Below are positions 9,001 to 12,000 of a stretch of DNA of 64,000 bases, piece after piece; the first letter of the stretch is position 1, and every line of letters starts with the position of its first letter. Position numbers: made by a program. Where the stretch lies: NCBI RefSeq assembly GCF_054482525.1, contig NZ_CM137006.1. One strand, given 5' to 3'.

Positions 9001-12000
9001 ACTCCTGGCTTTTTATCGCTGACGGATCTGATAAAGAACTTGATTCCTGTACCCTTTCACCAAATATAAACGACCACTTTGCCTTTCATCCTATTGTCGA
9101 TCCCTTATCGCGGCGGATAATCGCTTTTGAAGCCATTGTGCAAAAAAATGAAGACAGCCCGTCAGCTATAGCGGTTGGGCAGCGTAAAGAAGGGGAAATC
9201 TATACAGCGGATCTCAAAAGTAAGGCGCTTGCATTCGCGATGGCACACGCACTTGACCTCGGTGATAAAATGATTTCAATCAATCTATTACCTATGACCC
9301 TGGTTAACGAACCTGACGCAGTCTCTTTTTTACTTGATGAAATAAAGGCCAATGCTCTGGTGCCTGAACAAATCATCGTTGAATTTACTGAAAGTGAAGT
9401 CATATCTCGGTTTGATGAGTTTGCAGAAGCGATTAAATCGCTTAAGGCTGCCGGTATCAGTGTAGCAATTGATCATTTTGGCGCAGGTTTTGCCGGTTTG
9501 TTACTCCTGTCACGCTTCCAGCCTGACAGAATTAAAATCAGTCAGGAATTGATTAACAATGTTCATAAAAGCGGGCCACGGCAGGCAATTATTCAGGCGA
9601 TCATAAAATGCTGTACATCACTTGAAATTCAAGTCAGTGCTATGGGCGTGGCAACACCAGAAGAGTGGATGTGGCTTGAATCCGCAGGAATTGAGATGTT
9701 TCAGGGAGATCTGTTTGCTAAAGCTAAATTGAATGGTATCCCTTCCATAGCGTGGCCAGAGAAAAAATAATTTTCAGCACATTCTTTCACATGATTTCAG
9801 TAAATCATCGTGAAAATGAATACGTTATGTTTAAATTTAATCCACATTAAAAATAATGTTTCATCCAATTTAGCTGAAATCTTATTTATACTTTGTACAA
9901 TTTTAGCGTATATTGTACAAAGTATTATTGGGTCGTGTACAGGCGACGGAGATTTGTGACCGCAAGGAGGAATTGTGGCTTATTACAGCATTGGTGATGT
10001 TGCTGAACGTTGCGGGATTAATCCTGTCACTCTCCGGGCCTGGCAACGCCGCTACGGTTTGTTAAAACCACAGCGCAGTGAAGGCGGACACCGACTCTTT
10101 GATGAAGAAGACATACAACGCATCGAAGAGATCAAGCGTTGGATAAGTAATGGCGTCCCTGTAGGCAAAGTTAAAGCATTACTGGAAACCAACAGCCAGG
10201 ATACGGAAGATGACTGGAGCCGCCTGCAAGAAGAGATGATGTCAATTCTTCGTATGGCTAATCCTGCCAAACTACGCGCGAGAATTATTTCACTGGGTCG
10301 AGAGTACCCAGTAGATCAATTGATTAATCATGTTTACCTTCCTGTTCGCCAGCGTCTCGTGCTTGATCACAACACCTCCCGCATTATGAGCAGTATGTTT
10401 GACGGCGCATTAATTGAATACGCAGCAGCCTCGCTTTTCGAAATGCGCCGTAAGCCCGGTAAAGAAGCCATTCTGATGGCGTGGAATGTTGAAGAGAGAG
10501 CACGATTGTGGCTGGAAGCATGGCGTTTATCATTGTCAGGATGGCACATTTCTGTTCTTGCTGATCCCATTGAAGCGCCGCGCCCGGAACTGTTCCCGAC
10601 GCAAACATTGATTGTCTGGACAGGCATGGCACCAACGAGAAGGCAAAACGAACTTTTACAACACTGGGGTGAGCAAGGTTATAAAGTCATCTTTCATGCC
10701 CCCTAATTTTACCTTTATCCCGCCCCTTAGACAGAATCTTATAATCTGAACCCACAACAGCGTTTGTACCGGAGCTGGTCCGTTGCAAAATGCTCACCGG
10801 GAGAATTCAGGTAATCCCCCTTTCACACTTTGTACATATCACAGCCAAAGGACAGACCAGATTGAAGTGGTAAAACCGATCGTGCACACTACGCAGTCTC
10901 ACAACTAACAAGAGGTTATTATCCTGATGGATCAGGTTGTTGTTTTTCAAAAGATGTTTGAGCAAGTGAGAAAAGAGCAAAACTTCTCCTGGTTTTATTC
11001 AGAATTAAAACATCACCGTATTGCACATTACATTTATTATCTGGCTACGGATAACATCAGAATTATTACTCACGATGACACGGTTTTGTTATTAAGAGGA
11101 ACCAGGAACCTGTTAAAAGTTAGTACGACCAAGAACCCTGCTAAAATAAAAGAGGCCGCATTGCTTCATATTTGCGGAAAATCAACATTTCGGGAATACT
11201 GTTCAACACTGGCAGACGCGGGCGTTTTCCGGTGGGTTACTGATGTTAATCATAACAAACGCAGTTACTACGCCATTGATAATACGCTTTTATATATTGA
11301 AGATGTAGAAAATAATAAACCATTAATCTAGCTAAAGTTGGATGCTTAAAAAATGCTTCATAATTCAGTAAGGCATTAGCATAATGGAAATAAAAGTGCA
11401 GAGACTATTCATATGGATGAGTAATACTATCTTTTTATTGCCACCCATAAATAATCACCAGATCAATACTATCAACTTGATATTTGAAATGTGATCACTT
11501 GACTTTTGATACGTTATTTTATAGCGGTTAACATATTTATAAAATAAATATCCTCCGGCATAGCCGGAGGTTTTTCAAATGCGCCTATAAGGCTCTCTTA
11601 CCAGCCGCGCCCTAACAGGCGCACACGATCTGACATTTGCATCCAACTTCGTTACTTACGGCCCGTAAACGGGCTGCCCGGATAGGGAATCGATAACTGC
11701 TCTCCCATTTTATCCTCTTCAAGCTGGTGCTTTATGTAATCCTGTATCTTCGCCGTGTTCTTACCCACCGTATCGACGTAGTACCCTCTGCACCAGAACT
11801 CCCTGTTCCTGTATTTGAATTTCAAATCACCAAACTGCTCGTAAAGCATCAGACTGCTTTTCCCTTTCAGATATCCCATAAAGCCGGATACGCTCATTTT
11901 GGGCGGGATCTCCACAAGCATATGGATATGATCTGCACAGCATTCAGCTTCCAGAATCCGTACACTTTTCCACTCACACAGCTTTCTCAAAATACTGCCT

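What the first reader, a model, noticed from the sequence alone, without database searches (positions are those of the whole stretch)
10853..10926. Conserved leader upstream of both DUF1398 paralogues (host ycgX and prophage ybcV-like)
The ~75 nt before ycgX (…gacagaccagattgaagtggtaaaaccgatcgtgcacactacgc…) and before the prophage paralogue at 42713..42787 (…gtcagaccagattgaaacgataaaaacgataatgcaaactacgc…) share blocks of identity (cagaccagattgaa, aactacgc) at the same distance from the start codon. Conservation of a non-coding leader between host and prophage copies suggests a shared cis-regulatory RNA element or protein-binding site.
Basis: seen in the sequence. Interest (0 to 1): 0.4.

Follow-up and report, generated by a model that had tools for sequence, protein, structure and literature searches.

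The report
Shared promoter-operator of DUF1398 gene cassettes
The stretch conserved in front of both DUF1398 genes is most likely a DNA promoter with a binding site for host metabolic regulators (PdhR, perhaps FadR) that travels with the gene, not an RNA leader; this is ordinary gene control, and part of it is already published.

Summary
About 50 bp upstream of ycgX (10846-10891) and of the lambda-type prophage paralogue (42710-42755) share two blocks, GACCAGATTG and TGCAnACTA, separated by an 18-nt gap of fixed length and free sequence. The proteins are only 44% identical.

The same design precedes every Escherichia and Citrobacter DUF1398 gene I collected, in 16 lineages and unrelated genomic contexts. 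It is absent before the most distant homologues (Klebsiella, Kluyvera, Salmonella diarizonae and others).

The anatomy fits DNA-level control:
- A 17-bp GGTC-n-GACC box, whose prophage copy is letter for letter the published PdhR box of K-12 ybcV. It resembles validated FadR operators even more.
- This box abuts a -35-like TTGAAx, followed by a 17-bp spacer and a -10-like CAnACT.
- The predicted transcription start leaves only a 27-30 nt 5' UTR holding a Shine-Dalgarno sequence.

I found no RNA structure, no covariation and no Rfam match. An N-terminal coding extension is excluded; a short upstream ORF is weak but not excluded.

The start site and any FadR binding are inferred, not shown. Verdict: a conserved promoter-operator of a compact mobile cassette, a new member of a known kind. 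Interest is low to moderate.

The parts
10846..10862 (+). ycgX copy of the 17-bp GntR/FadR-type box, CAAAGGACAGACCAGAT. The left half-site is degenerate (GGA instead of GGT).
   Evidence: The FadR PWM gives 8.3 bits and the PdhR PWM 6.9 bits. No PdhR gSELEX peak is listed for ycgX.
10855..10864 (+). Block 1, GACCAGATTG. It combines the right half-site of the box with the first bases of the -35.
   Evidence: Invariant or nearly so in 16 lineages and in 36 haplotypes.
10862..10867 (+). Predicted -35 hexamer, TTGAAG.
   Evidence: Inferred; no start site has been mapped.
10868..10884 (+). 17-bp spacer of fixed length and free sequence. In E. coli ycgX it holds its own GGTnnnACC core (TGGTAAAACC, 10868-10877).
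10883..10891 (+). Block 2, TGCACACTA, containing the predicted -10 hexamer CACACT (10885-10890). Alternatively it is the start of a GTG-initiated 8-codon upstream ORF (10882-10908).
10897..10926 (+). Predicted 5' UTR of ycgX, about 30 nt, with the Shine-Dalgarno sequence AAGAGG at 10910-10915.
   Evidence: The start position is inferred as 7 nt after the -10.
10927..11331 (+). ycgX coding sequence (DUF1398, 134 aa).
42679..42702 (+). FNR site. This is the reverse complement of the site reported at DLP12 ybcW by ChIP-chip. It is present only in lineages that carry the divergent ybcW-like gene.
42710..42726 (+). Prophage copy of the 17-bp box, AAGAGGTCAGACCAGAT. It is identical to the published PdhR box of K-12 ybcV/ybcW.
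   Evidence: The FadR PWM gives 15.5 bits, the top hit in the whole window; the PdhR PWM gives 10.7 bits.
42726..42731 (+). Predicted -35 hexamer, TTGAAA.
42732..42748 (+). 17-bp spacer.
42747..42755 (+). Block 2, TGCAAACTA, containing the predicted -10 hexamer CAAACT (42749-42754).
42761..42787 (+). Predicted 5' UTR, about 27 nt, with the Shine-Dalgarno sequence GGAAGG at 42774-42779.
   Evidence: inferred.
42788..43198 (+). Prophage DUF1398 gene (ybcV / lambda p78-like, 136 aa). The longer 177-aa ORF from TTG 42665 is not supported.
42296..42502 (-). Divergent ybcW-like gene that shares the intergenic control region.

Best explanation
The conserved part of the 'leader' is a DNA transcription-control region. 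It forms the 5' end of a compact cassette (control region plus DUF1398 gene) found in lambdoid prophages and, as single-gene islands, in Escherichia and Citrobacter chromosomes.

**Layout, 5' to 3'**
- A 17-bp operator of the GntR/FadR-subfamily type, with a core of GGTC-n-GACC.
- A -35-like TTGAAx that overlaps the operator's last base.
- A 17-bp spacer whose length, but not sequence, is conserved.
- A -10-like CAnACT inside an invariant TGCAnACTA.

**Predicted transcript.** Transcription would start about 7 nt later, near 10897 and 42761. The mRNA leader would then be only 27-30 nt and carry little beyond the Shine-Dalgarno sequence.

**Proposed regulation.** A host metabolic regulator bound at the operator, centred about -43, sets expression. 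For the prophage-type copies this is PdhR, which was shown to bind in vitro and to be needed for ybcV expression in K-12. FadR possibly binds as well, since its validated operators resemble the box more closely. The ycgX copy keeps the promoter blocks, but its operator's left half-site has decayed.

**Shown and inferred**
- Shown: the conservation pattern, the identity to published sites, and the absence of RNA structure.
- Inferred: the promoter register, the start site, FadR binding, and activation rather than repression.
For: **1. Gene-anchored survey.**
- All Escherichia and Citrobacter DUF1398 genes collected have the motif with at most 2 mismatches, 67-73 nt before the ATG.
- These comprise 81 distinct upstream/protein combinations from IMG/VR, GTDB genomes and K-12.
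- Homologues at 31-38% identity lack it.

**2. Motif-anchored survey.** All 80 listed exact matches in viral contigs precede a DUF1398 gene.

**3. Constraint.** In 63 deep lineage pairs (46% amino-acid identity), nucleotide identity is as follows:

| Region | Identity |
|---|---|
| Upstream flank | 34% |
| 4-fold degenerate sites | 45% |
| Spacer | 54% |
| Block 1 | 79% |
| Block 2 | 92% |

The gap between the blocks is always 18 nt.

**4. Promoter reading.** TTGAAx-17-CAnACT is the best sigma-70-like site in 15 of 16 lineages. It scores 9.0-10.3 bits in 14 of them and 6.5 in the two C-type lineages. Scores of 9.0-10.3 occur once per 700-2100 nt in the window.

**5. Published sites.**
- Window 42710-42726 is identical to the PdhR box of ybcV/ybcW, and ydfO has AACAGGTCAGACCAGAT.
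- ybcV and ybcW mRNA fall 10-fold and 8.9-fold in a pdhR mutant (PMC7660256).
- The FNR ChIP-chip site lies 8 nt upstream of the box (PMC1802558).

**6. Resemblance to FadR operators.**
- The right half, GACCAGAT, equals the fadBA FadR operator. The left-half variants GGTC and GATC are those of the fad and fab operators (probes in PMC4259882).
- A 7-site FadR PWM scores the boxes at 12.8-18.4 bits. That is inside the range of true sites, and the prophage box is the best hit in the 64 kb.
- The PdhR PWM gives -5.0 to 12.3 bits, against 12.7-23.3 for true PdhR sites left out of the matrix.

**7. Cassette behaviour.**
- ycgX-clade copies sit in unrelated contexts (yedE/yedL, zinT/fliE, icd, pphA/emrE), with none of the phage genes tested within 1.5 kb.
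- They still carry the region from the box to the stop codon.
- Conservation begins at the 5' edge of the 17-bp box.
Against: - **No mapped start site.** I could not retrieve one for ycgX, ybcV or ydfO.
- **Weak -10.** It matches TATAAT at only 3 of 6 positions, and the tool's 4-of-6 scan does not call the site.
- **No RpoD SELEX peak found.** The RpoD holoenzyme SELEX main text does not mention ybcV or ydfO. For ycgX it lists only the iraM promoter downstream of it. This fits dependence on an activator, but it also fits no promoter at all.
- **A natural variant.** TGCTAACT, found in 10 loci, removes the predicted -11 A.
- **Block 2 is over-conserved.** It is invariant over more positions (TG, A36) than a -10 hexamer explains.
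- **Weak PdhR signal.** The PdhR gSELEX peaks at ybcV and ydfO (556 and 820) are just above the cut-off of 500. None is listed for ycgX, whose box scores only 8.3 bits.
- **No FadR data.** I found no experimental FadR binding data for these genes.
- **Crude matrices.** The FadR and sigma-70 matrices rest on 7 sites and on remembered frequencies.
Confidence: 0.6

Rival explanations
1. Cis-regulatory RNA leader. The conserved blocks would be transcribed from further upstream and fold, or be bound, as RNA to control translation or termination of the DUF1398 mRNA.
For: - The blocks lie at a near-constant distance from the start codon.
- In Qin-type prophages the region could be co-transcribed with ynfO, whose stop codon lies inside block 1.
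Against: - The RNAalifold consensus over 16 lineages is -2.3 kcal/mol, with 10 pairs and 0 compensatory changes.
- Minimum-free-energy z-scores are +0.27, -0.27, -0.05 and 0.00.
- There is no Rfam hit at gathering threshold or at E<=1.
- The pattern is two rigid blocks with a spacer of fixed length and free sequence. That is typical of protein-DNA contacts, not of helices.
- Homology stops a few bases upstream of the box in every context, so no common upstream promoter exists.
Confidence: 0.07
2. A short upstream ORF (leader peptide) starts inside block 2 at [A/G/T]TG-CAn-ACT-ACn (Met/Val-Gln/His-Thr-Thr...). Its translation would influence the DUF1398 start downstream.
For: - Position 27 of the motif is A, G or T but never C, so a start codon is always present.
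- The one variable base inside block 2 is a third codon position.
- In all 7 ycgX-clade lineages the ORF is 8 codons plus a stop (M/V-Q/H-T-T/I-x-P/S-H/Y-N*). Codon 4 varies as ACG/ACT/ACA.
- In C-type prophages the ORF's stop overlaps the ATG as TGATG.

All of this is read from the sequences.
Against: - No lineage has a Shine-Dalgarno sequence upstream of that start.
- GTG and TTG starts are unsuitable for leaderless initiation (established knowledge).
- In the prophage clade, frame and length are not conserved. There are 1-nt indels and a run of 4-6 C, and the ORF is in-frame fused, overlapping or 13-17 codons long.
- Variable positions in the ycgX-clade ORF fall 4/3/5 over the three codon positions, so there is no periodicity.
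- The K-12 annotation, which includes many small proteins found by ribosome profiling, has none here.
Confidence: 0.1
3. Remnant of an ancestral N-terminal coding extension. In the prophage copy the long ORF from TTG 42665 (177 aa, as annotated for lambda p78), or the ATG at 42746 (150 aa), would be the true start, with the extension pseudogenised in ycgX.
For: The in-frame translations look alike: QRTDQIEVVKPIVHTTQSHN* against [27 protein letters not shown].
Against: - DLP12-type copies have a 1-nt deletion between the blocks and the ATG, and Qin-type copies vary in C-run length, so the frame is not kept.
- All ycgX-clade copies have a stop codon there.
- In Qin the region is read in another frame as the end of ynfO.
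- Distant homologues at 28-36% identity start at the same N-terminus.
- The Pfam DUF1398 model starts at residue 8 of the short protein.
- The spacer is more variable than the blocks, whatever the codon position.
Confidence: 0.03
4. The blocks have no function of their own. They would be kept alike by repeated homologous exchange between prophages and the chromosome (mosaic 'linker' sequences or gene conversion), or by recent duplication.
For: Hybrids exist whose junctions fall in the blocks. L216 combines a Qin-type upstream flank, a lambda-type spacer and a Qin-type gene. L118 combines a lambda-type flank and spacer with a Qin-type gene.
Against: - Exchange would homogenise the 18-nt gap and the flanking gene as well. 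Instead the gap is 54% identical and 4-fold sites 45% identical in the same pairs in which the blocks are 79-92% identical.
- The blocks are also kept in Citrobacter and E. whittamii single-gene islands with no phage DNA nearby.
- The conserved letters coincide with functional consensus positions: TTG of the -35, A and T of the -10, and GGT/ACC of the box.
Confidence: 0.08

Closest known systems
PdhR box (GntR family, FadR subfamily): AATTGGTnnnACCAATT, core GGTnnnACC. Reported by genomic SELEX at K-12 ybcV/ybcW and ynfO-ydfO (Anzai et al. 2020, PMC7660256).
   Same: - The prophage box 42710-42726 is the very sequence listed for ybcV/ybcW. The ydfO-type box is listed too.
- The core GGTnnnACC is present.
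- ybcV expression depended on pdhR.
   Different: - The match to the full 17-mer is only 10 of 14, the SELEX peaks are near the cut-off, and PWM scores lie below those of true PdhR sites.
- The ycgX copy has GGA instead of GGT and no reported peak.
- The paper does not describe the shared promoter blocks or the conservation across paralogues.
FadR operators of the fad and fab regulons, for example fadBA ATCTGGTACGACCAGAT, fabA AACTGATCGGACTTGTT and fadL site 2 CACTGGTCTGAT (probes in PMC4259882).
   Same: - The right half, GACCAGAT, is identical to that of fadBA.
- The left-half variants GGTC and GATC are those of fad and fab sites.
- The Citrobacter copy contains ACTGGTCTGAT, exactly as in fadL site 2.
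- PWM scores of 12.8-18.4 bits lie within the range of true sites.
- As at fabA, the box abuts the -35. This geometry is my reading of the probe sequence and my own knowledge of fabA.
   Different: - I found no experiment showing FadR binding here.
- The box centre is about 4 bp further from the -10 than in my reading of fabA.
- The target gene has no known link to lipid metabolism.
Phage 'morons': accessory genes of temperate phages with their own promoter and terminator, expressed from the prophage (for example lambda bor and lom).
   Same: - A small accessory gene lies in the lambda right-end region next to bor.
- It carries its own conserved promoter-like region.
- It moves as a unit between prophages and chromosomal sites.
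   Different: - No intrinsic terminator was found downstream on the gene's strand.
- Promoter activity is not demonstrated.
Class II activator-dependent sigma-70 promoters, with the regulator centred near -41.5 and overlapping the -35.
   Same: A weak -10, a good -35 and a regulator site centred about -43 from the predicted start. Positive dependence on pdhR is reported for ybcV.
   Different: The start site is not mapped, so the -43 position is an inference. A site overlapping the -35 could equally repress.

Membership tests
Sigma-70 promoter | A -35 hexamer close to TTGACA | tested here: met
   TTGAAA (5 of 6) at 42726-42731 and TTGAAG (4 of 6) at 10862-10867. TTG is invariant in the 16 representative lineages; one lambda-type locus, L012, carries CTGAAA.
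Sigma-70 promoter | A -10 hexamer close to TATAAT, with A at position 2 and T at position 6 | tested here: inconclusive
   CAnACT matches 3 of 6, including A2 and T6, which are invariant in the 16 representative lineages. The tool's 4-of-6 rule does not call it. A variant, CTAACT, exists in 10 loci.
Sigma-70 promoter | A spacer of 17 +/- 1 bp | tested here: met
   Exactly 17 bp in all 16 lineages, while the spacer sequence varies (54% identity).
Sigma-70 promoter | A transcription start mapped 6-8 nt downstream of the -10 | not testable with these tools
   The transcription-start tables I could reach did not cover these genes.
PdhR box | The palindromic core GGTnnnACC | tested here: met
   The prophage copy has GGTcagACC (42714-42722) and is identical to the published site. 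The ycgX copy has GGAcagACC, so this feature is not met for ycgX.
PdhR box | Binding by PdhR that is weakened by pyruvate | not testable with these tools
   This rests on the literature only. gSELEX peaks at ybcV/ybcW (556 / 239) and ydfO (820 / 407) are near the cut-off of 500, and none is reported at ycgX.
FadR operator | A 17-bp imperfect palindrome around TGGTCnGACCA | tested here: met
   The 7-site PWM gives 15.5 bits for the prophage copy, the top hit of the window, and 12.8-18.4 bits in other lineages. ycgX scores only 8.3 bits.
FadR operator | Binding by FadR that is released by long-chain acyl-CoA | not testable with these tools
   No data found.
Structured cis-regulatory RNA (riboswitch, attenuator or leader) | A conserved secondary structure supported by covariation | tested here: not met
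   0 compensatory pairs, a consensus energy of -2.3 kcal/mol, and z-scores near 0.
Structured cis-regulatory RNA (riboswitch, attenuator or leader) | A match to a described RNA family | tested here: not met
   No Rfam match at gathering score or at E<=1.
Phage moron | Own promoter upstream and own terminator downstream of an accessory gene | tested here: inconclusive
   A promoter-like region is conserved. No terminator-like site lies downstream on the + strand of either copy.
Upstream ORF / leader peptide | A start codon with a ribosome-binding site, and a conserved frame and length | tested here: not met
   A start codon is always present, but there is no Shine-Dalgarno sequence. Frame and length are conserved only within the ycgX clade.

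The most novel reading that the evidence does not exclude
The DUF1398 cassette carries a promoter wired to the host's FadR/PdhR pair, the acyl-CoA and pyruvate sensors. A lambda-family accessory gene and its domesticated chromosomal copies would then be switched by the host's carbon and lipid state. The operator would be maintained by selection across prophages and single-gene islands, and would be decaying in E. coli ycgX.
Probability: 0.3. Interest if true: 0.45.

Novelty: new member of a known kind. Interest (0 to 1): 0.25.

Why it matters
If right, this gives a concrete handle on three poorly understood E. coli genes (ycgX, ybcV, ydfO) and on lambda's own p78. The handle is a defined promoter and a defined operator, both of which can be mutated. 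It also offers a testable link between prophage accessory-gene expression and host metabolic sensing. It illustrates that a regulatory region can be better conserved than the protein it controls, because it moves with the gene as one cassette. It does not reveal a new kind of element.

Tried and rejected
**Searches that led nowhere**
- Mapped start sites. The stored part of the Cappable-seq GTF does not reach 578 kb. Thomason et al. 2015 is not held. The 3'-end-mapping supplement lists only antisense or internal sites for these genes. The SMRT-Cappable-seq supplements do not mention them. The cap on papers stopped a look at the PPTP-seq data.
- Protein homologues. The first protein search returned only near-identical hits, many from roughly 3.5-kb contigs with frame errors.
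- Locus search. The 9-sequence alignment was too divergent to use, so a 5-sequence alignment was used instead.

**Readings considered and rejected**
- An N-terminal extension (frame not conserved).
- Coding of the upstream gene's C-terminus as the cause of block 1. This holds only in Qin-type prophages.
- Alternative promoter registers, such as -10 GATAAT at motif positions 23-28. This is good only in lambda-type copies and has no usable -35 at 16-18 bp (and by reading).
- Sigma-32, sigma-E, sigma-28, sigma-54 and sigma-S consensus patterns. I compared these by eye from memory and none fits across lineages; this was not tested formally.
- The RpoS-holoenzyme SELEX peak inside ycgX. It lies about 290 bp from the blocks, too far to assign to them.
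Full report
**Setting**

The window is E. coli chromosome.
- bluF (8481-9770), bluR (9975-10706) and ycgX (10927-11331) lie on the + strand, next to an IS200-like transposase gene.
- Further on is a lambda-like prophage. It carries Nu1 (41003-41548, -), a DUF3950 gene (41937-42131, +), a ybcW-like gene (42296-42502, -), a DUF1398 gene (ATG at 42788, stop at 43198, +), bor, Rz and R.
- Both DUF1398 proteins match Pfam PF07166 from residue 8 onward. The prophage protein matches the solved YdfO structure 2HH8.
- The prophage gene corresponds to lambda's own gene at 47066-47452 and to K-12 ybcV.

Yes.
- The two upstream regions are unrelated until 10847 / 42711. They are then 39/48 identical over the first 48 nt. 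Identity falls to 45% over the rest of the leader, which has a 3-nt indel, and is 59% in the coding region.
- The proteins are 44% identical. The first part of the 'leader' is therefore clearly better conserved than the gene.
- The bipartite pattern GACCAGATTG-N18-TGCANACTA, allowing up to 3 mismatches, occurs only at these two places in 64 kb. The expected number by chance is 0.03.

**How far does it extend among relatives?**

DUF1398 is a small family. A search of 1.8 billion representative proteins gave 250 hits, most of them fragments. I collected loci in two ways.

*Anchored on the gene.* I used 80 viral contigs, 27 loci from one genome per species and the three K-12 copies.
- Every Escherichia and Citrobacter copy has the motif with at most 2 mismatches, 67-73 nt before the ATG. 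These make 81 distinct upstream/protein combinations.
- This includes a 'ycgX clade' that is 44-51% identical to the prophage protein: Citrobacter sp. MGH106, C. gillenii, E. whittamii and other E. coli loci.
- The homologues at 31-38% identity lack it: Klebsiella, Kluyvera, Pseudocitrobacter, Raoultella and Salmonella diarizonae.

*Anchored on the motif.* All 80 listed exact matches in viral contigs lie in front of a DUF1398 gene. The motif is therefore private to this gene and is not a general phage signal.

**Anatomy**

I aligned 16 lineages on the motif, numbering the G of GACC as position 0.
- Invariant letters are GA-C-GATTG at positions 0-9 and TGCA-ACTA at positions 28-36.
- The 18 nt between the blocks vary freely, but their number never changes.
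- Conservation starts at about -9.
- Across 36 distinct haplotypes the invariant columns are 0, 1, 3, 5, 6, 8, 9, 25, 28-30 and 33-36.

In the 63 deepest lineage pairs (46% amino-acid identity), nucleotide identity is as follows:

| Region | Identity |
|---|---|
| Upstream flank | 34% |
| 4-fold degenerate sites | 45% |
| Gap between the blocks | 54% |
| Block 1 | 79% |
| Block 2 | 92% |

This is purifying selection on two short blocks at a fixed distance. It is not recent duplication or wholesale gene conversion.

**What the blocks look like**

*Promoter.* Positions 7-12 read TTGAAx and positions 30-35 read CAnACT, 17 bp apart.
- This is a -35 with 4-5 of 6 matches, and a -10 that keeps the two critical bases (A at -11, T at -7) and varies at the least important one.
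- I scored the region with a simple sigma-70 matrix whose frequencies I recalled from the classical compilations. This arrangement is the best site in 15 of 16 lineages. It scores 9.0-10.3 bits in 14 of them and 6.5 in the two C-type lineages. Scores of 9.0-10.3 occur once per 700-2100 nt in the window.
- The predicted start is near position 42, that is 10897 and 42761. The 5' UTR would then be 27-30 nt and contain the Shine-Dalgarno sequence.

*Operator.* Positions -9 to 7 form a 17-bp box around GGTC-n-GACC.
- In the prophage copy the box is AAGAGGTCAGACCAGAT (42710-42726). This is the exact reverse complement of the PdhR box that Anzai et al. list for the K-12 ybcV/ybcW spacer.
- The ydfO copy (AACAGGTCAGACCAGAT) is in their table too. 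They also report that ybcV and ybcW mRNA fall 10-fold and 8.9-fold in a pdhR mutant (PMC7660256).
- Eight nucleotides upstream lies the FNR site found by ChIP-chip at ybcW (PMC1802558). ArcA is reported to activate ybcW (PMC3798270).
- So for the prophage-type copies this stretch is documented regulator-binding DNA.

**PdhR or FadR?**

The box resembles FadR operators more than the PdhR consensus.
- Its right half, GACCAGAT, equals that of fadBA (ATCTGGTACGACCAGAT).
- The left-half variants seen among lineages (GGTC, GATC) are those of the fad and fab operators.
- The Citrobacter copy contains ACTGGTCTGAT, as in fadL site 2 (probe sequences in PMC4259882).

| Matrix | DUF1398 boxes | True sites |
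|---|---|---|
| FadR (7 validated sites) | 12.8-18.4 bits | 3.3-17.5 bits (each left out of the matrix) |
| PdhR | -5.0 to 12.3 bits | 12.7-23.3 bits (each left out of the matrix) |

- The prophage box is the best FadR-type hit of the whole window.
- ycgX is the exception. Its left half-site is GGA, it scores 8.3 bits, and no PdhR peak is listed for it.
- I found no experiment on FadR at these genes, so FadR binding is an inference.
- The box centre lies about 43 bp upstream of the predicted start and overlaps the -35. That position is compatible with class II activation, but also with repression.

**Cassette behaviour**
- In lambda and DLP12-type prophages the region upstream of the box is the ybcW spacer.
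- In Qin-type prophages it is the 3' end of ynfO, whose stop codon is the TGA inside GATTGA.
- In E. coli it is the bluR flank.
- The other ycgX-clade copies sit between yedE and yedL, next to zinT and fliE, next to icd, or between a phosphatase gene and an emrE-like gene. None of the phage genes I tested lies within 1.5 kb.
- What is common to all is the stretch from the box to the stop codon.
- Hybrids with junctions inside the blocks exist (L118, L216), so the blocks also serve as crossover points.
- The ycgX leader and gene start are present at 95% identity or more in about 5000 of 5426 complete E. coli genomes.

**RNA reading**
- RNAalifold on the 16 lineages gives -2.3 kcal/mol, 10 pairs and no compensatory change.
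- The two window leaders, and the two predicted UTRs, fold no better than shuffled sequences.
- Rfam finds nothing, even at E<=1.
- Since the best-conserved part would lie upstream of the transcript, the RNA reading is not supported.

**Coding readings**

*N-terminal extension.* The in-frame translations of the two leaders look alike, but the frame is not conserved.
- There is a 1-nt deletion in DLP12-type copies.
- There are runs of 4-6 C in Qin-type copies.
- There are stop codons in all ycgX-clade copies.
- Distant homologues begin at the same N-terminus.

*Short upstream ORF.* A short ORF starting at the [A/G/T]TG of block 2 is a weaker but live rival.
- In the ycgX clade it always has 8 codons plus a stop.
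- It has no Shine-Dalgarno sequence, its frame and length are not kept in the prophage clade, its variable sites show no codon periodicity, and it is not annotated in K-12.

**What remains unexplained**
- Block 2 is invariant over more letters (TG, and the A after ACT) than a -10 hexamer requires.
- A variant, TGCTAACT, in ten loci removes the predicted -11 A.
- The RpoD-holoenzyme SELEX main text does not mention ybcV or ydfO. For ycgX it lists only the iraM promoter downstream of it.
- No mapped start site could be retrieved.

**Verdict**

The finding is real and under selection. The best-supported explanation is a conserved promoter-operator that belongs to a mobile DUF1398 cassette and is read by host GntR-type metabolic regulators. 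PdhR binding is published for two copies; FadR is a sequence-based suggestion. This is a new member of a well-known kind of element, partly described already. Interest is low to moderate.

Noticed in passing
window 12120-12243 (-), next to 11652-12161 (-): A full-length Rfam match to STnc490 (146 bits) lies immediately upstream of an IS200-like transposase gene. It is presumably the IS200 5' region.
   Followed up: no
window 42679-42702: Exact reverse complement of the FNR site reported by ChIP-chip at DLP12 ybcW. It lies 8 nt upstream of the 17-bp box. A similar TGACA-N4-ATCAT is kept in C-type and L118-type prophages.
   Followed up: partly
window 10868-10877: The ycgX promoter spacer contains its own GGTnnnACC core (TGGTAAAACC; PdhR matrix 10.6 bits for the 17-mer starting at 10865). 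It is not shared by the other ycgX-clade lineages.
   Followed up: partly
L088, L089, L090, L106, L087 and Qin variants, motif positions -5..-2 and 23-26: Several lineages have GATC (Dam) sites inside the left half of the box and again just before block 2. The lambda type has none.
   Followed up: no
L111 (K-12 Qin) 680-748; record NC_000913.3 1636979-1637047: In Qin-type prophages block 1 overlaps the end of ynfO (DUF3950). Its stop codon is the TGA inside GATTGA, and the ybcW module is absent.
   Followed up: partly
Qin-type loci, e.g. L081, L083, L084 (motif positions 37-44): The run of C after ACTACG is 4, 5 or 6 long in different prophages, so this is a length-polymorphic homopolymer in the predicted start region.
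   Followed up: no
L041 group and L057 (10 loci): Variant TGCTAACT in block 2 (A to T at motif position 31). It removes the predicted -11 A of the promoter.
   Followed up: no
window 42788-42804 and 10927-10943: A small hairpin includes the start codon (AUGGCUCAGGUUGCCAU). Across lineages only GC/GU-type one-sided changes are seen, and it lies within coding sequence.
   Followed up: partly
protein hits P0002-P0120; loci L083, L085, L086; MW057783.1: Likely database artefacts. First, many roughly 3.5-kb ENA contigs encode error-ridden lambda p78-like proteins. Second, lambda- or Qin-like DUF1398 loci appear in records named Collinsella MAG, Nanosynbacter MAG, Amphritea pacifica and 'Campylobacter phage CJLB-4'. 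Third, RefSeq labels lambda p78 'head protein'.
   Followed up: no
window 11357-11385 (+): The promoter-like site TTCATA-17-CATAAT downstream of ycgX equals the constitutive RpoD promoter listed for iraM in the SELEX study. However, this window has an IS200-like element where K-12 has ymgL, ymgK and iraM.
   Followed up: no
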